Of a stretch of 64,000 nucleotides of DNA, positions 4,999 to 63,995 are shown in pieces. The translations under genes and the position numbers were made by a program. Numbering within the stretch: the first letter of the stretch is position 1; each line of letters begins with the position of its first letter. A model generated the notes under the pieces. The model saw only the letters and a program-made list of their open reading frames with translations. It ran no database searches and had not been told where the DNA came from. Source of the DNA: Eledone cirrhosa (lineage: Eukaryota); NCBI GenBank assembly GCA_964016885.1, contig OZ024742.1, positions 110,856,001 to 110,920,000 of the forward strand. Reading direction: 5' to 3'.

Positions 4999-5041
<43 letters not shown>

Positions 5042-5196
5042 CATACAGGCACACACATATATATATGTACGTATCAGTTTAGAGAACATTTATTATAATG
5101 TTCGCTTTGTTCGCCTGTAAACAAACGGACATCCTGATTTATGCCGTACGGTGTTAAGGCAACCACGTCACCCCCTTGTTCAACACTGACACAGGA

Positions 5197-5239
5197 ACGA
5201 TGTACTAGTTTCAAGCTTGTTAGCTATCGTCAGCACCGT
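5197..5239 (-). ncRNA. Type I hammerhead ribozyme (475-nt unit)
   Basis: Minus strand ACGGTG CTGACGA TAGCT AACA AGCTT GAAA CTAGTA CATCGT. Confidence 0.85.
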
Positions 5240-5473
5240 ATACCCTTCTGCCAGATGGTTGAACTTTCGAAACTATATACTTTCCTTATGAAAATTAACG
5301 GCTGAGCAGCCTAATTTGCATATCGAGTGAGTTCAGTCGGCCAGGCGCACCGAAAACGATAAAATGGAATAGAATGAAATGAAATTTCATTTATCACTCT
5401 TAGTACGGCACTTACTTAAATGTAAGTATGTATGTATACGTACATACATATATGTATACAGACGTACAGTAGC

Positions 5474-5522
<49 letters not shown>

Positions 5523-5671
5523 CAGGCACACACATATATATCTACGTATCAGTTTAGCGAACATTTATTATAATGTTCGCTTTGTTCGCCTGTAAACAAA
5601 CGGACAGCCTGATTTATGCCGTACGGTGTTAAGGCAACCACGTCACCCCCTTGTTCAACACTGGCACAGGA

Positions 5672-5714
5672 ACGATGTACTAGTTTTAAGCTTGTTAGCT
5701 ATCGTCAGCACCGT
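5672..5714 (-). ncRNA. Hammerhead copy with G12->A (probably inactive)
   Basis: Same motif 475 bp from the first copy, but GAAA reads AAAA. Confidence 0.7.
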
Positions 5715-5856
5715 ATACCCTTCTGTTGAATAAGGTGGTGACGTGGTTGCCTTAACACCGTACGGCATAAATCAGGCTGTCCGTTTGTTTACAGGCGAAC
5801 AAAGCGAACATTATAATAAATGTTCGTTAAACTGATACGTACATATATATGTGTGC

Positions 5857-5896
<40 letters not shown>

Positions 5897-6130
5897 GCTA
5901 CTGTACGTCTGTATACATATATGTATGAACGTATACATACATACTTACATTTAAGTAAGTGCCGTACTAAGAGTGAGAAATGAAATTTCATTTCATTCTA
6001 TTCCATTTTATCGTTTTCGGTGCGCCTGGCCGACTGAACTCACTCGATATGCAAATTAGGCTGCTCAGCCGTTAATTTTCATAAGGAAAGTATATACTTT
6101 CGAACGTTCAACCATCTGGCAGAAGGCTAT

Positions 6131-6173
6131 ACGGTGCTGACGATAGCTGACAAGCTTGAAACTAGTACATCGT
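6131..6173 (+). ncRNA. Type I hammerhead ribozyme (475-nt unit)
   Basis: Stem I ACGGTG/CATCGT, core CTGACGA 6137-6143, stem II AGCT/AGCT, GAAA 6158-6161, palindromic stem III ACTAGT, cleavage predicted after A6167. Confidence 0.85.
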
Positions 6174-6395
6174 TCCTGTGTCAGTGTTGAACAAAAAGGT
6201 GACGTGGTTGCCTTAACACCGTACGGCATAAGTCAGGCTGTCCGTTTGTTTACAGGCGAACATTATAATAAATGTTCGCTAAACTGATACGTACATATAT
6301 ATATGTGTGCCTGTATGTATATATATTTATTTATATATATATATACATGCTACTGTACGTCTGTATACATATATGTATGTACGTATACATACATA

Positions 6396-9679: not shown

Positions 9680-9985
9680 TAAGTATGTACACAGACGTAC
9701 AGTAGTATGTATATATATATACATACATGCACACATATATATATATGTACGTATGGATTCACCGAACATTTATTATGATGCTCGGTGTGTTTGTAAACAA
9801 ACATCCCGTATTAGGCCGTAGTGTCCAGCAACCATCGTTGCTCGTTTGTTCAACACTGACAAAGGAACGCTGTACTAGTTTTAAGCTTATTAGCTATTGT
9901 CAGCAACGTATACCTTCCTGCCAGATTGTTGAACGTATATATTTACCTTATGCATATTAACAGCTGAGAAGCCCAATTTGCGATT
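9680..9985 (-). repeat. Diverged copy of the 475-nt HHR family with a decayed ribozyme (about 9867-9909)
   Basis: Clear similarity to 4980-5320. The core reads CTGACAA and GAAA reads AAAA. Confidence 0.7.
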
Positions 9986-10241
9986 CCTGTCTACTGAGAT
10001 TACTGAATTTGTCACTACTCTAAAACAATAGCATACGGTCTTCAAAATGCTTTTAATGCATAAAGTGTATTGCAAAATACATTATATATACATCCATATA
10101 TATATTGCTATTTCAGAGGTCCAATTCTAATTTTTAATTTCTGCCTGACCAACAATCGCTCTGTATAATCAGTTCCTGATTATTTACTAGAATTCTATAA
10201 GAATATAACATTAGTAATCTCAGTAGACAGGAGGGGTAGTT

Positions 10242-10286
10242 AGCCTTGATAAGCTTCAACAAAAGCGAAACAAGGCCTTGTCGGCT
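10242..10286 (+). ncRNA. Hammerhead ribozyme with U3:A8 core (TTGATAA)
   Basis: AGCC TTGATAA GCTT-CAACAA-AAGC GAAA CAAGGCCTTGTC GGCT. GUC triplet with cleavage after C10282. Stem I is extended by AATCTCAG/CTGAGATT. Confidence 0.85.
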
Positions 10287-10561
10287 TATCTCCCCTGTTT
10301 GCTGAGATTAAAGTAAGTGAATTTGTTACTACTCTAAAACAATAGCATACGGTCTTCAAAATGCTTTTAATTAAGCGTAAAGTGTATTGCGAAATACATT
10401 ATATATATACATCCATATATATATTGCTATTTCAGAGCTCCAATTCTAATTTTTTAATTTCTGCCTGACCAACAATCGCTCTGTATAATCAGTTCCTGAT
10501 TATTTACTAGAATTCTATAAGAATATAACATCAGTAATCTCAGTATACAGGAGGGGTAGTT

Positions 10562-10606
10562 AGCCTTGATAAGCTTCAACAAAAGCGAAACAAGGCCTTG
10601 TCGGCT
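10562..10606 (+). ncRNA. Second identical U3:A8 hammerhead
   Basis: Exact copy 320 bp downstream. Confidence 0.85.
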
Positions 10607-10730
10607 TATCTCCCCTGTTTGCTGAGATTAAAGTAAGTGAATTTGTCACTACTCTAAAATAATAGCATACGGTCTTCAAAATGCTTTTAATTAAGCATAA
10701 AGTGTATTGCAAAATACATTATATATACAT

Positions 10731-10777
<47 letters not shown>

Positions 10778-10780
<3 letters not shown>

Positions 10781-12912
10781 ATAATAATAAATTTGAAGAC
10801 TAAAATACAAAGAGGGTTCGATAAAGATAAATATATATCAAACATATAAGAACCGTACAGCAAATATTTATTAAAATAACAGATTAATGTTTAAGCAAAG
10901 AATCGCTGCTTTCCCCCTTAACGGGAACTTCTGAAGCTAAAAAAGTCAATCTGTGAACGCAGAAGTAAATATTTCAAAAAACGTTGCAACCGAAGTAAGA
11001 CAGCAAGACGATACTTTGGTTCGTGTAAACGTTCCCTGGCAAAGAACGGTAAAAAACGAGGATAATACGTCATTATATGGAGCGGAGGAAAACAATTACA
11101 TGCAAAGACAAAACCACGTTTATGGTATAAATGAAGTCGTAGACTAATTTTTATTAGGTGATTCATGGAGACGTTCTCTGGCAATGAACGAAAAAAAACG
11201 AAGATAATACGTCATTATGTGGATCGAAGAGGACAATTACACGCACAGACAAAACCACGTAAATGGCATAACTGAAGTCGTAGACTAAAATTCTATTCAG
11301 GAAACCGAATGATCCTCGGCTTCAGAGTTAAGAATAAAGTAAATAAAATACAGAGATAATTGAAACTAAAATTATACATACTTGCATCCATATACGTACA
11401 TACACAAGCATATGCGAAAACACTCGCCATGGGTATTCAAATACAAGCACATACACAAAAAAACACGCACGCAGATACAGAACCCACGCAACGCCTGTAC
11501 CCGCACACATACGAACGTATACACCAAATACACATAAAAATATATATTAAAAAAAAAATATTAAGTAACTGTAAATAAATATACACACATAAATACGTAT
11601 ATAACGAGCGCACACACATACCTACATGTAAATACACATATGTTGGCAGACGTATGTCAACCAAAACAGAAAGTACACATATACACACACACAACATACG
11701 CACGACCCGCATACTCACACAGACGCAAAACTCACGTATACACATATACCAGTATATATAATATATACGCCATAACGTATACAAGTTAATATACGTACGA
11801 GAAAGTATACGTACCTTCACAAAACATACAGGTAATATATACAAATAAGTAATGGTATAAACATAACATATACTTAGCTACCACATCAAGACGTAAAATA
11901 TCCGCGTATAGTTCGTACTATCCGTTAGGGTATAATGTGGGGCTGTAATACAGGAACGTTTTGTGCAATTTATGTTTACAAGCCGAAATTGCCTCAAATT
12001 CTTTGTTTAAGATGTGATCATTGGCGTAGAGTATTTCCCGGGCCTCAGCGACGCAGAGGTCACATGATCTTTTATTTCCGTTATACGATCTAGCCTCAGC
12101 TAGGATCTCCCAGTGTAACTTATATTGGGTGTGGTTGTCTTTTAGACTCCAGATATAAGCTGAAAGGGACGTCATATTCATTCTTAAAGGGTTAAGAAAA
12201 GAATGGGTATGCATGTAAAGACACTGCTTGAATCTATTGGTGGTTAACCATATGTAGTCCCTACGGGACGTGGGTGTTTCAACTTACATGTGTATACAAT
12301 GTTACTAGAGAGGCATTTCCCGGATAGGAGCAGTCAACCCGATTCCTACAATTACAGTTAGTACTAGCTACAGGGTTGCACGTGTTCCTACGGCTAGGTA
12401 ATTTAGCTAAATTTGAAGCTGTGATGTTATGTACAAGGTTAGGAGTCGTAGTGTAAGAAATTTTACTGGTATTTCTATTAAAAATTTTACTATATCTATG
12501 TGCTGGGGGAAATGCTTCATAATAATGGAGAGAAAGATCTTAACTAATGGTGTGGCCACCTCCATATTATATGTGGGTTATACCATATAATGCATCTGGA
12601 TCTATTTTTCCTAGGTCTATTCTCGTACTCTGTATATGCTACCTTATCGACAAATCCACTCCGAGCAAGAGCTTCATTGTAATATGTGGAATGGCTGTTG
12701 AAAATATGCTCGTTTGTAGATAGACGGGAAAGCCTCAAAGAAACGTTTCTTACCAGGTTCTTGGGTATGCTGCCAGCATCGTTGATTTCATTAATGACGC
12801 TCCGATTAGTTTTACGGTATTCCTTATTTACAGCATTATATAGCAGTTGATGGTAAGGAATGCGCTCCACTTGATATAGATTGCCAGTTTTGTCGGAGTG
12901 GACGTGCACGGC
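10778..12912 (-). mobile_element. Decayed Naiad-type PLE lacking the RT core, with long 3' UTR; inverted copy of its UTR at about 12915-13330
   Basis: ORF pieces VHSDKTGNLY..EIN / KNLVRNVSLRLSRLS..WYNP and LSAYIWSLKD..CDLCVAE..SACKHK align to the 14866-16794 protein. Its 3' end recurs at about 2351, 6920 and 38488. Confidence 0.85.
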
Positions 12913-13348
12913 ATTGGGTTCTGTATGTACGTATATGCATGCGTGTATGTATAATCTTAGTTTCAATTACCTCTGTATTTTATTTACTTTATTCTTAACT
13001 TAAGTATATGTTATGTTTATACCATTACTTATTTGTATAGGTAAGTATTTATTATCTGTTATTTTGTGAAGGTACGTATACTTTCTTGTACGTATATTTG
13101 CTTGTATATGTTATGGTGTATATATTATATATACTGGTACATGTGCATTTGGTTATGTGTATACGTGAGTTTTTCGTCTGTGTGTATATTTCGTCGGTAT
13201 GTGTATATGTGTATTTTGTGTTTTGGTTGACATACGTCTGCGAACATATGTGTATTTACATGTAGGTATGTGTGTGCGCTCGCTATATAATTATTTATGT
13301 GTGTATATTTATTACATTTATTAATTATATGTATACACGCACACACAT

Positions 13349-13382
<34 letters not shown>

Positions 13383-13498
13383 GACATAGAATATTCGAAA
13401 ATATTCTGTATGTTTATAATAAACATTTTGAAGACCTAATCGCTATAGAATAGAATACGTCACGTATTACAATTAGATTCTCGATAAAAGCAAGGGAA

Positions 13499-13541
13499 GT
13501 AATCTACGCGTTTCATTCTTGTTAGAATTCATCAGGACTAC
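13499..13541 (-). ncRNA. Type I hammerhead ribozyme (310-nt unit, inverted copy)
   Basis: Reverse complement of 13725-13767. Confidence 0.88.
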
Positions 13542-13724
13542 ATATCCAGTGCTTTTATCGAGAATGACACAGCTAGAGACTTATAGAATACTTAGCTGTG
13601 TACAGGAACTGGTTTGAAAGAGCGGTTGCCGGTCCGGCAGAAATTAGAAATTGGAATAAATGCTCTGAAATAGCGATATATATGTGAATATAGACATAGA
13701 ATATTCGAAAAAAGCACTGGATAT

Positions 13725-13767
13725 GTAGTCCTGATGAATTCTAACAAGAATGAAACGCGTAGATTAC
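13725..13767 (+). ncRNA. Type I hammerhead ribozyme (310-nt unit)
   Basis: GTAGTC CTGATGA ATTCT-AACA-AGAAT GAAA CGCGTA GATTAC. Palindromic stem III ACGCGT is typical of minimal PLE/retrozyme HHRs. Cleavage predicted after A13761. Confidence 0.9.
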
Positions 13768-14034
13768 TTCCCTTGCTTTTATCGAGAATCTAATTGTAAT
13801 ACGTGACGTATTCTATTCTATAGCGATTAGGTCTTCAAAATGTTTATTATAAACATACAGAATATTTTCGAATATTCTATGTCTATATTCACATATATAT
13901 CGCTATTTCAGAGCATTTATTCCAATTTCTAATTTCTGCCGGACCGGCAACCGCTCTTTCAAACCAGTTCCTGTACACAGCTAAGTATTCTATAAGTCTC
14001 TAGCTGTGTCATTCTCGATAAAAGCACTGGATAT

Positions 14035-14077
14035 GTAGTCCTGATGAATTCTAACAAGAATGAAACGCGTAGATTAC
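14035..14077 (+). ncRNA. Type I hammerhead ribozyme (310-nt unit, second tandem copy)
   Basis: Identical motif, closed by a perfect 16-bp ATTCTCGATAAAAGCA/TGCTTTTATCGAGAAT extension. Confidence 0.9.
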
Positions 14078-14259
14078 TTCCCTTGCTTTTATCGAGAATC
14101 TAATTGTAATACGTGACGTATTCTATTCTATAGCGATTAGGTCTTCAAAATGTTTATTATAAACATACAGAATATTTTCGAATATTCTATGTCTATATTC
14201 ACATATATATCGCTATTTCAGAGCATTTATTCCAATTTCATATATATATATATTTATAT

Positions 14260-14560: not shown

Positions 14561-14586
14561 AAACGACCAAATGTTATCTCGACCAG

Positions 14587-14782
14587 GGGGAGATTAATAA
14601 TAATAAAGTATATATACCTACACGCAAAATACATATAGGGACACATGTATTATCCAACCATATGCCAATGTGGTTCTATGGCAGGTTAATAAATTACACA
14701 TTGCCATATGGTTGGATAATACATGTGTCCCTATATGTATTTTGCGTGTAGGGATATATACTTTATTATTGTTAATCTCCCC
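14587..14782. repeat. Inverted repeat (about 85-bp arms) at the 5' junction of the Naiad ORF
   Basis: GGGGAGATTAA...CAATGTG pairs with CACATTG...TTAATCTCCCC, with few mismatches. Confidence 0.85.
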
Positions 14783-14865
14783 ATGACAGATATTGCGACA
14801 ACCAAGACTTCGGCACCAAGGAGAGATTCGGATTTATTACCTACAAATCTCCGCCCCTGAACCCC

Positions 14866-16794
14866 TTGCTCGCACCCTTCGAGAATGACCTCTTCCAACT
14901 GGTCAAGAACATTAAATTTAAACCCAGACACAACCGATTCCTACAAAAACTCCGTAGCAACTTAACAGAGTATGATAACACAAATGACATCATGGTGCAT
15001 TCGGATAAAACTGGGAACCTATACTTTGTCAACCCTGACAGATACCACACACTGATCAGGAGCAGCCTAAACTCCACCTATAAAAAGGCCAACCACTCTT
15101 GCATCGAGGACATAAATCGAGATGGACAACAAATCACCTCCAGCCTCGGGGTCGCCGACCGCACGGAACCTCTAGACCCACGGACACCATACTTCACACT
15201 GAAGGACCATAAATCCGATTTTGACCGTAAACCCTCTATCAGGCTTATTAACCCAACGAAGTCCGACATAGGGAGAATCAGCAAAAAAATCCTAGACCGC
15301 GTGATACCAAAAGTCAAGCAACACACCCGACTTAGCCTATGGATCAACACCCAGGAAGTAATCTCCTGGTTCAGCAATATGGAGGATAAACGAGAAACTA
15401 AATTCATACAGTTCGACATAGAGAGCTACTATGCTTCAATCACCTTACCGCTACTTACTGCCGCCTTGGACTTCGCCGAAACACTCGTGCCCATCACCGA
15501 CCAGGAAAGAAAAATCATCCTCCACGCCAGGAAGACAGTCTTACTCTTTGACGACTCTAAATGGATAAAAAGAGCTCCCGACTCACCCTTCGACGTCAGC
15601 ATGGGCGCCACGGATTCGGCGGAGGTCACTGATCTTATAGGATTATTCCTAATAGCCAAACTCACTGATATGTTTCCTGCATTCGGTGGTGGATTGTACC
15701 GTGATGATGGGCTCCTTACCCTTAAAGGGTACAACCCCAGTAGTACAGATCGGGTCCGGAAACAATTAATCAGATTCTTCCGCGACTGGGGATTTAAAAT
15801 AACCCTACAAACGTCCCTGACCCGAGTAAACTTCCTGGACGTAACCCTCGACCTCGAAAACGACCTGTACTACCCATACAGGAAACCTAATAACAATCTG
15901 CACTACATCCACCGCCGATCAAACAATCCTAGGAACATCACAAACAACCTGGTCAAAAACATCTCCCTCCGCATATCCCGTTTGTCAGCTAATGAGCGGA
16001 TATTCGATGAACATGCGCCTTATTACAACCAGGCCCTCAAGCGGAGTGGTTTCCGGGAGGAAATATCCTACTGTCCAGCTCCCATTAGCGGAACCAGCAG
16101 GAGACACCGCCGCTCACGCAATGTAACATGGTTCAATCCTCCCCACAACGCAGAGGTGACTACTCCCATCGGGAAACTATTCTTTAGGCTCATTGAAAAA
16201 CACTTTCCATTACAACACCGCTACCACAACATAATTAACAAAAATACCATCAAACTCTCTTACAGCACTACACCAAACTTCGCACAAAACATCGTCTCCT
16301 CTAACAACAAAAAACTCAACCCCGATGGCAGAAATAACCTAAATAGCAGTGGAGAACCGACCAGGAGGTGTAACTGCCCGGATAGATCTATTTGCCCACT
16401 CGACAATAGATGCAGAGACCGTAATGTGATCTACCAGTGCAACGTGAGGACGGATACTTCCAACAAAGCCTATATAGGACTTACCGCATGTGACTTCAAG
16501 ACCCGGCTATACCAACATAGACATACCTTCCGAAACCCGGCCCGGCGTCACGCCACTACACTTTCGGGCCACATATGGGACCTCAAGGACAACAACATCA
16601 CCTATGATCTCACTTGGAGATTACTGTCCAGAGCCAATTCTTACACGGGAGGACGCCGTCCGTGCAATTTATGCTCGGAGGAAACTTTACAAATGCTGTT
16701 TTCGACGGACCAACTCCTAAACAAGAAAGATGAACTGGTTACTGCATGTAAACATAGATTGCGTAGGACTTACCTCGCCCTCAAACCCCTATAA
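14866..16794 (+). CDS. PLE polyprotein: reverse transcriptase plus CxC-x5-C-x5-C linker plus GIY-YIG endonuclease
   Basis: Motifs TLKDHK, RLINP, QFDIESYY, FDVSMGA, GLYRDDGL, VNFLDV, WFNPP, CNCPDRSICPLDNRC, VIY..YIG..FKTRLYQH, CNLCSEE, ACKH. The frame stays open upstream to about 14780 (ERFGFITYKSPP) with no ATG, so the ORF is 5'-truncated. Confidence 0.93.
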   Translation: MLAPFENDLFQLVKNIKFKPRHNRFLQKLRSNLTEYDNTNDIMVHSDKTGNLYFVNPDRYHTLIRSSLNSTYKKANHSCIEDINRDGQQITSSLGVADRTEPLDPRTPYFTLKDHKSDFDRKPSIRLINPTKSDIGRISKKILDRVIPKVKQHTRLSLWINTQEVISWFSNMEDKRETKFIQFDIESYYASITLPLLTAALDFAETLVPITDQERKIILHARKTVLLFDDSKWIKRAPDSPFDVSMGATDSAEVTDLIGLFLIAKLTDMFPAFGGGLYRDDGLLTLKGYNPSSTDRVRKQLIRFFRDWGFKITLQTSLTRVNFLDVTLDLENDLYYPYRKPNNNLHYIHRRSNNPRNITNNLVKNISLRISRLSANERIFDEHAPYYNQALKRSGFREEISYCPAPISGTSRRHRRSRNVTWFNPPHNAEVTTPIGKLFFRLIEKHFPLQHRYHNIINKNTIKLSYSTTPNFAQNIVSSNNKKLNPDGRNNLNSSGEPTRRCNCPDRSICPLDNRCRDRNVIYQCNVRTDTSNKAYIGLTACDFKTRLYQHRHTFRNPARRHATTLSGHIWDLKDNNITYDLTWRLLSRANSYTGGRRPCNLCSEETLQMLFSTDQLLNKKDELVTACKHRLRRTYLALKPL

Positions 16795-17920
16795 TGACCC
16801 GGGGGGGGGGGGGTAGACTAGGGCTATAACACCCCACTTGCCGATTTTGCAATGGGTAACCCCTGCTTGCCAAGGAAGACGTAAGATCTTCTTTGTATTC
16901 TTTTATCGCTTCCTTTAATTCCTTCCCCCCTCTCTCCTTTGTCCTTCTACCCCAGCTCTTCTCCTTTGTCGGCGTCTTTTCTCGCCCACCCGAGGCTGCC
17001 CTTTGGCCCCATGTAGCCTTAGTACCCCCCCCCTCCCCTAGTCTATGATAGATTTGGCGGACTCCGCCCTTTATAGCAGTTGGCTTAGACCCCGGATACT
17101 TGCCCCCTTTTTTCCGACCGCTCCCACTATTCTCTGTGCCCTCTATATTTCTTAGTGGCACTTATGCCTTATTTTTTCGTTTCAGTATTTCTTGCTTCGC
17201 TTTTCTTCTGGGCGGGGTGGATTCTGAATTTATTTCTCCGTATTCTACCTTTATTTCGTACGAACTTTCATGTAGCTTGTTTTAGATCTTTTAGAGTTAG
17301 CATTAGTATATATTTTTCTCGGGACTCAGAATTATTATCTCGTACAAGTTCACTTTGCTGCACTGGGTCGTTGCTGGCCCGGGATGGAAACCTTTATTGT
17401 TTATTTCGTGGTAGTCTCTTTAGTATTTTGGCCCCTTTTGTTGACCCGTCACCGTATCATTTACGTACTTATACCTCTTAAAAGGGTCCTTGCCTTATCC
17501 GTCCCACCTAGTTCTTTTACTTATTTCCTTATTTATTTATTTATTTATTTATTTACTTCTTTCTTTCTTTCTTTATTTTATTCTCGCCTAACAATAGCCT
17601 GACACCTAGGTCGTAGAATTTAATTTACTTTACTTTTTTCTTTACACTTATTTGCTTTTCTTCACTCTCAGTATTTTTTCTTTCCTATTTCTACCCCCCA
17701 TTGTTCTACCTACCGTTCCGACTTCCTCCCCCTCCCCCTCCCCTGTATCTTCTTTGACCTCATGCCCAGCTGTAGCTGGCACTACCAACGCTTGATTGGG
17801 TCTACTCCACCCCCTCCCCTCTTTCTCCTACTGGCAGGTTTAGCCACCATCTCCCCTACTAATTTGCAACCACAGAATTACTACTGATTTTTGACAATCA
17901 CTTTGACCATATATGGAATT

Positions 17921-18014
17921 ACCCCTTGAGAAGATCGGCTATTTAAATACCAGGATAAATTTTCATTTAGTCCAGAATTAGCCGTCGAAACGGCTTGAGC
18001 TCAGCTGTCGGGGT
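17921..18014 (+). ncRNA. Hammerhead ribozyme with U3:A8 core (TTGAGAA) in the PLE 3' end
   Basis: Stem I ACCCC/GGGGT, core TTGAGAA 17926-17932, stem II GA(T)CGGCTA/TAGCCGTC with a large loop, GAAA 17987-17990, stem III ACGGCT/AGCTGT, GUC triplet with cleavage after C18009. Confidence 0.85.
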
Positions 18015-18106
18015 CTTACTGGTTCCTATTACCCACTCTACTACCTCAAGTATTGAGTACTTTGGTGCGTTATGGTCCACCTGGTTCCTTACCACATTTC
18101 CTTCGT

Positions 18107-18161
<55 letters not shown>

Positions 18162-60579: not shown

Positions 60580-62460
60580 TTACTGAAGTGCTTTTGGATA
60601 CACAATGTTTTTTGTTTTTCCTTCTGGTGCGTACACAAATAAATCAGAAGGTTTACCGACGCGTGAGCAAGCCACACACAGCTGTCCATGTGAGAAGCAT
60701 GGATTTTCTAAATTTAGTCCACACACTTGTAGCGATTGTCCTTGTGCTTTGTTGATAGTCATTGCAAAGGCGAGTCGCACCGGAAACTGCAAACGTTTGA
60801 ATTCGAATGGCGTATCTGTCGGAATCATTGGGATGCGTGGCAACAGTACACCTTCTGCTTTTAATTTTCCATTTAAAATTGTAGCTTCGATGATATTGTT
60901 CATCATCTTTTTCACTGAAAGCCTGGTACCGTTGCAAAGTTGTGGTGGATTGATGTTTCGGAGAAGGATGATAGGCACGCCAATTTTCAATGTTAAAATG
61001 TGCGGTGGCATGCCTGGCAAATCAAGTGAATTCAAGAATTCAGTTGGATAATTGATAATTTCGTCTTGATTCATTACAGTATCGATGGACTTATACGTTG
61101 TCGCTTCGCCTGGTATTTTGTTTTGAATGCTGAAATAAATGGCATTGACATCGTCGTTTTTGGCTGCTCATATAGCACGTGCATTGAGCCACTGATGATT
61201 TTTGTAATGCTGCGCGATATTTGGGAAAACTTTGTGAATCAGTTCGTCTCTGGTTGCCGTGATTCTACAGAAGTTTGTTGGCAATGTCATACATTTTGTG
61301 GATTCATCGATTACCATTTTCCCATTCCCAATATCCAGCAATTGTTTTGTGAAACGTTCAGCGGATGCATCATTTTGTAGTTGTACACGCATATTGGTTT
61401 TTAAAGTTAATTTCTGTATGTGTCGCCATAAAACTGATGATTTGAGACATGCATTAAGCTCATCAGCGGGTGTTGATCGCGGTATAACTGGTAGAGTTTG
61501 TCGAAAATCACCAGACAATAAAATGAGTGTGCCACCGAAGAGCTGTTCATTTCCTTTCAAATATTTTAGTGTGTTATTAAGCGCTTCCAATGATTTTTTG
61601 TGCGCCATAGTACATTCGTCCCATATAATGATTTAACATGATTGGAGTACTTTACCTATACCAGAACTTTTGGTGATATTGCATGTTGGTGTCTCAGTGA
61701 TTTGCATATTCAATGGCAATTTCAGTGCTGAATGTGCAGTTCGGCTACCATCCAAAAGAGTTGCCGCAATTCCAGATGATGCGATTGCCAGTGCAATATT
61801 ATTTTGTGATCGTATAGTTGCCAAAATATGTGAAATGAGAAATGTTTTGCCTGTACCACCGGGCGCATCTATAAAATACAATCCGCCGCTTTGATTTGTA
61901 ATTGCCTGCATAATTTTGTCATATACTATGCGTTGTTCTGGTACCAATTTCAGAAGATTCGTTTGAACAAATGTACCCAATTCGGCGACATCAAAGTTTG
62001 TTTCTCGTTGCAAATCACGATCGAAAATGTCGTTTACAGATCGATTCGGCGCAGGTATTCCCAATTGTACCAGTGTTTTGTTAGCGATTGCTAAACATAT
62101 GACCTCAATCGAAACCAATGCTTCATTATACACGATTGGTGTGAATTGAATATTCAGATTTTGATTTGTTGCACGCAAACGATGTAGGATGTCTTCACTC
62201 ATGTAGTCTTTGTATTTTTCCCAAAGATCTTTTGGATTTGATGGGAAGCACGTTGTCAATATTATTGCGAATAACGTGCGTATTTGCTGTGGTCGAGCAG
62301 TATTCGATGCATCAGCGAGTGAAGTGTCCCAATGTCCATCATTTTCAAGAAGATTTAATTTTTGGCAAGCTTCACGATAAGTGGCACATACTTGACCGTT
62401 TACTGTTCTCAATTCTTGGAATGATGTCGGTCCACGTACGTTGATTAACAATAATCGCAA
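60580..62460 (-). pseudogene. Helitron PIF1-family helicase region, with in-frame stops at about 61633 and 61168 and a frameshift near 62490
   Basis: DAPGGTGKT, ASSGIAATLL, IWDECTM, GDFRQTLPV, LCNGTRL and AMTINKAQGQS motifs. Confidence 0.92.
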
Positions 62461-62476
62461 GTAAAAGCATTCTGCA

Positions 62477-63995
62477 TTATTTGGGTGAACAGTACAAACG
62501 GCCTAACGCGTCGGTCGAATATAAATTGGAATGTCCTTCAACTACTTTACCCTGTTTGCGACGTTTAAACTTTTTCGTTGATGTATTCCATGTGTAATAT
62601 GTTGGCACTTCAGAATAAAGTAGTGTCTTTGCAAACACATCTTCACTGCACAATGAGAAAAATTCAGTTAACGTTGTTGGCGGTGGTGTCAATGCCCTTG
62701 CACGTATATTTTCAGTTGTGAAGTATACGCGCTGTCCATTTTCAAGGTGCACCGCCAAATGAACAACTGTTGGATGTTGATAATGGATTGGAAATGAGAA
62801 AATGCGCCGTACTGCTTCATTACTACTAATGTAGCGTACCAGTTGGTATTGGTCGATTTCATCGATAGATGCATTTGCATTGCACACTCCAAAAACTGCC
62901 ATATCGCTTCCTTTGTTGATATATTTGCAAATGTACTTGATCGCTTTCACCGAATTGCAATACTCGACATTGATGTGTGCTTTGAACGTCTTTGAGAGTA
63001 ACGGTAAATATGGTACAACCCAACGATTATCGACTTCAACATAATTGTTTCGTACTTTTAAAGTGATGGATTTGCCGCCATCATCAGTTGCTCGTCGACG
63101 ATAGAGTGGATATCCGTCATTGCCAGTGATAGTCTCGGCAACTAAGTCTCTTGGGTATTGTTTCGTGCATTTCCCATCAGACATGCATGGTGAATTGTTG
63201 TTGAGTAAGCTACATGGACCATGAATCATGTTTTTAGTGACGACTTCAAATAAGTCTGGATCAACGTCGACATCTGGTATTTCTGCAGAGATGATTTGAT
63301 CAATTTGATCTGGTCTGACTTTTTCAATTAACCAAATCAAAATGTGTGCATGTGCCAATCCTCTTTTTTGCCATTCAATGGAAAACATCCAACAGCGTGT
63401 CTCTCCAAAAACATGATGCTTGACAATTAAATCCGTTAAAGATTTCAATTTTTGTTTGAACACACGCGCTGTAATATCATGACGATCCGAAGACGATTGA
63501 CCAGGTAACAAAAGTTCTTTAATTTCATCCCACGTAGGATTGCATGTGAATGTAATAAAAATATTTGGATGGCCATATGCGCGAACATATGTCATTGCAT
63601 CTTGTGCGTATTCATGCATGTGCCGTGGGCTCCCTGTAAATGTAGCGGGCAGTATGACCATTTTTCCCCAATTAATTAGGATTCATATTGCCATCATTAA
63701 CAATGGCATAACGTAAATGAATGTACTCTTCTGAACGTAGTTTGGTTTGATTCAATCGAATGTAGAGGAGTCGTTCAGTTTCGATTTTTGCATACATATC
63801 GACAATGTATTGATGGAACAATTGTCGACATTTCAAAATATGATTTTCACCGTTTTCACGAATCATTAATCTATATGAATAATAATTCATGGCACTGACT
63901 TTCTTATTCGTTTCCTCATCTGTTTGTGGATTTCTCAGTTTGATGTTGAAATGATATCCATCTTCTCCTTGCCAAAATAAAATCGGATATTGCAA
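62477..63995 (-). pseudogene. Helitron Rep (HUH endonuclease) region, interrupted by a stop and frameshift near 63665
   Basis: FITFTCNPTW, EWQKRGLAHAHIL, MIHGPC, DNRWVVPY and KYICKYINKG motifs. Confidence 0.92.

What the first reader, a model, noticed from the sequence alone, without database searches (positions are those of the whole stretch)
10006..14238. Two repeat families share a conserved backbone but carry different ribozyme modules at the same position
Seen: the 320-nt and 310-nt units share GGTCTTCAAAATG, GCTATTTCAGAG, TAATTTCTGCC.GACC..CAA.CGCTCT, CAGTTCCTG and ATTCTATAAG in the same order and similar spacing. The HHR hairpins that follow have no evident primary similarity (TTGATAA/GUC versus CTGATGA/GUA), though both are closed by long stems. 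Inference: either modular ribozyme exchange or structure-only conservation. The non-ribozyme block is the sequence-constrained part and is a candidate RT-recognition, promoter or splicing element.
Basis: partly seen in the sequence, partly recalled or inferred. Interest (0 to 1): 0.75.

Follow-up and report, generated by a model that had tools for sequence, protein, structure and literature searches.

The report
Sister retrozymes sharing a Penelope-type tail
The two repeats are cousins within one large family of small protein-less jumping elements; their hammerhead-shaped RNA motifs drifted apart step by step rather than being swapped, and their shared stretch holds the two fixed points where copies end, which is likely where a borrowed Penelope-type enzyme starts copying.

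Summary
The five shared blocks are real, but the ribozymes are not different modules. The two hairpins are colinear homologues: 41/73 identical without the core and stem III (0/1000 shuffles). They pair in one register with compensatory changes, and their core difference is the published U3-A8/C3-G8 covariation. The genome holds 20,637 exact matches linking backbone to hammerhead core. Intermediate subfamilies (C, E, D) give a stepwise series towards A. Backbone and hairpin trees are congruent (distance r=0.93), and no A/B chimera was found. B sits on a long branch with no intermediates of its own. The useful result concerns the backbone: 156 of 167 arm ends fall at two fixed sites about 35 nt apart, most running into (TA)n, and 41 of 50 two-armed loci have one of each. 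This is the Penelope-like 'tail', which in a published in vitro system lies between two reverse-transcription start sites. Verdict: a new family of known non-LTR retrozymes, likely mobilised by a Penelope-like enzyme. The partner was not found (three families tested). Cleavage and expression are untested. The scan noted this kind of element before, in other families of this genome.

The parts
9985..10008 (-). 24-nt inverted stub of the A unit at the 5' junction
   Evidence: weak HMM hit (E 2.8); reverse complement of the hairpin 5' arm read directly
10004..10742 (+). Subfamily A array, 2.3 units of about 320 nt, ending at the short end in (TA)n (10733-10777)
10037..10201 (+). Backbone, A unit 1
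10246..10282 (+). Type I hammerhead core, U3-A8 variant, GUC site, A unit 1
10351..10521 (+). Backbone, A unit 2 (predicted helices P0-P3, tail, post-tail block)
10536..10629 (+). Hammerhead hairpin, A unit 2 (core 10566-10602; palindromic stem III)
10778..12966 (-). Internally deleted Hydra-type Penelope-like element; neighbour, no backbone homology
13366..13711 (-). Subfamily B inverted arm, ending at the short end in (TA)n; hammerhead 13535-13505
13705..14239 (+). Subfamily B direct arm, 1.7 units of 310 nt, ending at the long end in (TA)n; hammerheads 13731-13761 and 14041-14071 (C3-G8, GUA site)
13830..13996 (+). Backbone, complete B unit
14011..14099 (+). Hammerhead hairpin of B, homologous to that of A
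14202..14239 (+). Tail (about 35 nt between the two fixed ends; holds the GCTATTTCAGAG block), present on this arm only
14584..18128 (+). 5'-truncated, 5'-inverted copy of a young Hydra-type Penelope-like element (open frame 14776-16794, hammerhead 17926-18009); neighbour, no backbone homology

Best explanation
The 320-nt and 310-nt units are two subfamilies of one non-coding, hammerhead-bearing tandem element (a non-LTR retrozyme) that descend from one ancestor over their whole length and are likely copied into (TA)n by the enzyme of a Penelope-like element. Shown: whole-unit homology, stepwise subfamilies, faster change of the hairpin through compensatory pairs, two fixed ends about 35 nt apart inside the backbone, one end on each arm of inverted insertions, and (TA)n targets. 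Inferred: the array is transcribed; the hammerheads cut it, probably as dimers through the self-complementary stem III; a Penelope-like protein binds the backbone, nicks (TA)n and starts reverse transcription at the two sites, one per strand, which yields the two arms and the one-sided tail. On this reading the backbone keeps its letters because a protein reads it, while the hairpin needs only to keep its pairs and catalytic core.
For: Hairpin homology: (B hairpin scores 33.4 bits on a profile built without B; segment-wise shuffles with the core kept: mean 2.4, max 16.4, 0/1000; hammerhead-like hits outside the family at most 12.8); stem I arms alone, B against three C copies z 3.9-5.8, 0/500 each. 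Covariation: 19 of 28 hairpin pairs change on both sides, 95.7% of cells paired against 37-45% for slid registers. Concordance over 117 distinct units: r=0.93; 5 of 117 have a different nearest subfamily by part, all among D/E/A, none involving B. Trees of 46 of the 117 recover A, B and A+D in both parts. The hairpin/backbone length ratio on B's stem (0.68/0.28) is not above that on the C-to-A path (about 0.66/0.15, my sums of printed branches). Chimeras: 0 and 0 genome-wide; the non-chimeric versions match 125 and 313 times in the fetched, partly overlapping loci. Ends: 85 short, 71 long, 11 other of 167; 41 of 50 two-armed loci have one of each. PMC11167929 (parts 1-2 of 4 read): the tail is the sequence between two RT start sites. 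PMC4209133 (part 1 of 4 read): U3-A8 is a known core covariation.
Against: No autonomous element with this backbone was found: three Penelope-like families were tested, and their tails are about 80, 90 and 60 nt by eye, not 35. B has no intermediates, and the base of the backbone tree is unresolved. Over the whole hairpin, B scores about as well against an unrelated 467-nt retrozyme F (mean 55.8) as against C (61.9) and better than against A (44.2); only the arms separate them (B against F z 1.9, 91/2000). Backbone covariation is modest: 5 of 26 pairs change on both sides, a number reached by 253/500 shuffles. The shuffle controls ignore relatedness, and the loci were picked by patterns and top hits, not at random. 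No cleavage, binding or RNA data.
Confidence: 0.8

Rival explanations
1. Ancient module swap: the B lineage took its hammerhead from another retrozyme family, such as F, and kept the backbone.
For: B and F share a 4-nt stem III, a UAACAA loop II and the closing ATTCTC/GAGAAT pairs; whole-hairpin score 59, 61% identity. B's branch is long and unbroken.
Against: B's arms match C (z 3.9-5.8) and not F (z 1.9). The hairpin tree with F included puts B with C at 97/99 and F on a separate very long branch. B pairs in the same columns as the other subfamilies. No chimeras. Only two F copies were available.
Confidence: 0.06
2. The backbone is conserved mainly as a promoter or intron of a Penelope-type pLTR, and the ends merely fall within it.
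For: GTAAGT follows the hairpin in 76 of 98 non-B units, and TTTCAG lies in the tail. Penelope and Chlamys-3 have a 5'-UTR intron overlapping an internal promoter (PMC8557442 passage).
Against: 0 of 19 B units have GTAAGT, and no spliced junction was found in the fetched loci. Helices P1 and P2 covary, which points to an RNA role. This rival can hold together with the main reading, for example for the post-tail block.
Confidence: 0.15
3. The units are satellite DNA spread by recombination, and the backbone is homogenised by gene conversion between subfamilies rather than by selection.
For: Arrays are internally uniform; all 10 listed units at C1:15,423,563-15,426,687 share one private change.
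Against: Dispersed insertions have fixed 3' ends, variable 5' ends, head-to-head inversion and a one-sided tail. Backbone distance rises with hairpin distance.
Confidence: 0.04

Closest known systems
Metazoan non-LTR retrozymes (Cervera and de la Pena 2020, PMC7229834; parts 2-3 of 6 and passages read)
   Same: Non-coding tandem units of about 300 nt, low GC, type I hammerhead in each unit, many thousands of copies, strongly self-paired predicted circle (z -4.8 and -4.1). That paper also reports two repeat variants with different hammerheads in axolotl.
   Different: Here the insertions have Penelope-type inverted arms, a one-sided tail and (TA)n targets; the parts I read do not describe these for retrozymes. 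Expression and circles are untested here.
Retrozymes as non-autonomous derivatives of Penelope-like elements (bioRxiv 10.64898/2026.07.22.740005; parts 1-3 of 5 read)
   Same: Same proposal: hammerhead tandem repeats borrow the PLE machinery.
   Different: Their evidence is co-occurrence and pLTR similarity; here it is the end structure, and no pLTR parent was found.
Tail and internal RT initiation of endonuclease-bearing PLEs (Frangieh et al. 2024, PMC11167929, parts 1-2 of 4; Craig et al. 2021, PMC8557442, passages and section 11)
   Same: Two fixed ends about 30-40 nt apart and downstream of the hammerhead, tail on one end of tandem/inverted insertions, AT-rich or microsatellite targets.
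   Different: In the anole element the start sites lie in the 5' part of the ORF; here they lie in a non-coding unit whose short frame is not kept between A and B.
U3-A8 core variant and dimer-type hammerheads with palindromic helix III (Cervera and de la Pena 2014, PMC4209133, part 1 of 4)
   Same: Same core covariation; self-complementary stem III (self-duplex -19.5 kcal/mol in A, -7.5 in B).
   Different: Here both core states and several stem III lengths occur within one family's history, with a long extended stem I.

Membership tests
Non-LTR retrozyme | Tandem units of about 150-450 nt, each with a type I hammerhead | tested here: met
Non-LTR retrozyme | Non-coding, no LTR-type structure, low GC | tested here: met
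   no conserved frame; region GC 33-35%; no tRNA
Non-LTR retrozyme | Dispersed high copy number | tested here: met
   17,914 and 20,637 exact pattern matches, reversed controls 0
Non-LTR retrozyme | Self-cleavage | not testable with these tools
   core letters and covariation only
Non-LTR retrozyme | Expressed as linear and circular monomers | not testable with these tools
   needs RNA data
PLE-mobilised element | Tandem and inverted arms with 5' truncation | tested here: met
PLE-mobilised element | 30-40-nt tail on one end only | tested here: met
   156 of 167 ends at two sites; 41 of 50 loci one of each; 35 alignment columns
PLE-mobilised element | Microsatellite target | tested here: met
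   most ends run into (TA)n
Derivative of a specific autonomous PLE pLTR | Sequence homology to the end of an autonomous element | tested here: inconclusive
   no homology in two Hydra-type and one Neptune-like family (31, 30 and 30 loci), nor exact motif hits in the one supplement file held for PMC8557442; other PLE families of this genome not examined
Modular ribozyme exchange | Non-homologous hairpins on a homologous backbone | tested here: not met
Modular ribozyme exchange | Conflicting trees or chimeras | tested here: not met

The most novel reading that the evidence does not exclude
The backbone is a compact, folded docking domain for a Penelope-like reverse transcriptase: a junction of helices that carries both start sites. 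The enzyme rolls around a ribozyme-made circle to write long uniform arrays on both arms, although no autonomous element in the genome shares the sequence. This family would then be a ready 170-nt substrate for testing how animal retrozymes move, with natural covariants already mapped.
Probability: 0.35. Interest if true: 0.55.

Novelty: new member of a known kind. Interest (0 to 1): 0.33.

Why it matters
The ribozyme-swap headline falls, and the kind of element is known. What remains is mechanistic: how animal retrozymes are mobilised is described as unresolved in the 2020 paper and the 2026 preprint that I read. Here a family with about 20,000 matching units shows the Penelope two-start-site signature, and its most conserved sequence lies on and around those sites. 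That gives a defined RNA region and a graded series of natural variants for a binding and priming test.

Tried and rejected
DNA search of the genome with the B unit returned no candidates; patterns showed that B is abundant, so this blank probably comes from the filter for common words. RNA runs: no RNA holder listed. Laying contigs of coded runs served only as a lead to subfamily C. Metagenome scan for the backbone: 0 matches. Paper searches: no paper holds two of four backbone motifs; searches listed no paper whose title or abstract start points to this family or to tails mapped in retrozymes, which covers only the held library and the listings I saw. Pfam found nothing on the Hydra-type ORF; I first took it for Naiad and corrected this from the domain order and the RWK-like, DKT and CxCX5C motifs. 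A 28-30-residue frame from the conserved ATG is not kept in frame between A and B: rejected. A shared AGTCTTCAAA near the end of the minus-strand Hydra element did not reach significance with the backbone profile. Weak profile hits on Hydra-1 short ends (E 0.06-0.24) look like TA-run artefacts. The probability of the monomer catalytic fold from ViennaRNA is uninformative, since the model does not cover the core and my constraint was rough. The sigma-70 scan does not apply to this genome. One search lost all B rows through a truncated extraction and was redone. In alignment A2, B is shifted by one column at helix P0, which lowers that helix's count; anchored counts are. Trees used 46 and 28 rows sampled from 117.

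Full report
Observation. The window holds a 2.3-unit array of 320 nt at 10004-10742 (A) and a 310-nt array with an inverted arm at 13366-13711 and a direct arm at 13705-14239 (B). A descriptor finds type I hammerheads in each complete unit; Rfam gives only matches below the gathering score. Between and beyond the arrays lie two Penelope-like elements with a C-terminal endonuclease and the motifs listed for the Hydra clade (PMC8557442 section 11). The region is a pile of separate insertions into (TA)n.

Are the ribozymes different modules? No. Globally aligned, the backbones share 124/171 and the hairpins 54/96 letters. With the core letters and stem III removed the hairpins still share 41/73 (z 5.25, 0/1000). 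The 5' arm, 3' arm and linker are each weakly above their own shuffles (9, 16 and 28 of 1000). TTGATAA against CTGATGA is one swapped pair, U3-A8 for C3-G8, already reported in Penelope-like elements (PMC4209133). On 24 copies from all subfamilies, 28 hairpin pairs are formed in 95.7% of cells, and 19 pairs change on both sides (reached by 11/500 shuffles); slid registers give 37-45%. The shuffles ignore relatedness, so these are not probabilities.

Intermediates. Patterns give 17,914 exact matches for two backbone blocks and 20,637 for backbone plus hammerhead core, with reversed controls at 0. A loose end in contigs led to subfamily C; further patterns gave 2,609 and 1,160 matches of other types. 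From the fetched loci, 117 distinct units fall into A (47), D (21), B (19), C (12+3), E (8) and 7 singletons. Backbone/hairpin identities run 0.91/0.79 (A-D), 0.85/0.68 (A-E), 0.83/0.64 (A-C) and 0.72-0.76/0.53-0.58 for B against each; the distances correlate at r=0.93 (pairs are not independent). Both core states occur outside B: C and E mostly C3-G8, D and A mostly U3-A8. Separate trees of 46 rows recover A, B and A+D in both parts; the base of the backbone tree is unresolved. Five of 117 units have a different nearest subfamily by part, all among neighbouring D, E and A. Patterns for B-backbone with an A-lineage stem III and for the reverse gave 0 matches each (controls).

The weak point is B, which has no intermediates. 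Its hairpin scores 33.4 bits on a profile built without B, against at most 16.4 for 1000 shuffles that keep the core. An unrelated 467-nt retrozyme (F, two copies seen) matches B's whole hairpin about as well as C does. On the arms alone, B matches C (z 3.9-5.8) and not F (z 1.9), and the hairpin tree joins B to C at 97/99. I leave 6% for an ancient swap.

What the backbone does. Copies of A and B have variable 5' ends, frequent head-to-head inversion and fixed 3' ends. Of 167 distinct arm ends, 85 fall just before the GCTATTTCAGAG block, 71 about 24 nt after its start and 11 elsewhere; most run into (TA)n, and the exact base is blurred by the TA run. Of 50 loci with arms in both directions (a few overlap), 41 have one short and one long end, 4 two short, 1 two long and 4 an odd end. 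The window's B insertion has one of each. The interval spans 35 alignment columns. This matches the 30-40-nt one-sided tail of Penelope-like insertions (PMC8557442), which in the anole element corresponds to the sequence between two internal start sites of reverse transcription (PMC11167929). Columns identical in all five subfamilies make up 60% of the region before and within the tail, 69% of the tail, 63% of the block after it and 26% of the hairpin. Two backbone helices show changes on both sides, and 91.7% of cells pair over 26 proposed pairs, but the count of covarying pairs is not above shuffles. I infer that a Penelope-like protein binds this region and primes at both sites; binding is not shown.

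Partner. The young Hydra-type neighbour (3531-bp unit, 784-residue frame), the older Hydra-type neighbour and a Neptune-like family (GIY-YIG hit) each show two ends of their own and (TA)n targets. None matches the backbone profile except where a family copy has inserted next to it. The partner remains unknown.

Comparison and verdict. The element meets the sequence criteria of animal non-LTR retrozymes (PMC7229834) and fits the proposal that they are non-autonomous Penelope-like elements (10.64898/2026.07.22.740005). Cleavage, expression and circles are untested. Earlier notes of this scan describe the same kind of element in other families of this genome; a look-up by sequence found none for this family. 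It is a new member of a known kind. The swap claim is rejected, and the mapped start-site region is the part worth following.

Noticed in passing
window 14584-18128; L091: Very young Hydra-type Penelope-like family: 150 of 150 scored matches identical at protein level, tandem unit 3531 bp, U3-A8 hammerhead with a long stem II, two ends about 80 nt apart (longer than the 30-40 nt in the papers read).
   Followed up: partly
window 10778-12966; L191-L220: Second, older Hydra-type family with two ends about 90 nt apart and no hit to my type I hammerhead descriptor in the window copy, although hammerheads are reported as universal in that clade.
   Followed up: partly
L116:362-1260; L164:2708-3129: Separate 467-nt tandem retrozyme (F) with a 4-nt palindromic stem III and a UAACAA-like loop II; it shares only a short ATTCATATA...TATTTCAG look-alike with the backbone (not significant).
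   Followed up: partly
L221-L250: Neptune-like family with a minimal hammerhead about 200 nt after the ORF and two ends about 60 nt apart, inserted in (TA)n.
   Followed up: partly
G000 C1:15,423,563-15,426,687 and C1:1,239,983-1,244,158: All listed units of one two-armed B insertion share a private change (a substitution in the first, a 311-nt period in the second), as expected from one template copied many times.
   Followed up: no
L251:4862-7540: An A array again abuts the older Hydra-type element 18 Mb away; identities (93% and 88%) are at family level, so probably independent insertions into the same kind of target.
   Followed up: partly
window 60583-63682: Helitron fragments (Helitron_like_N, PIF1 and Pif1_2B hits) on the minus strand.
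   Followed up: no
window 5022-6326 and 9706-9981: Another dispersed repeat of about 280 nt in several inverted and direct copies (about 79% identity), abutting the 5' side of the A array.
   Followed up: no
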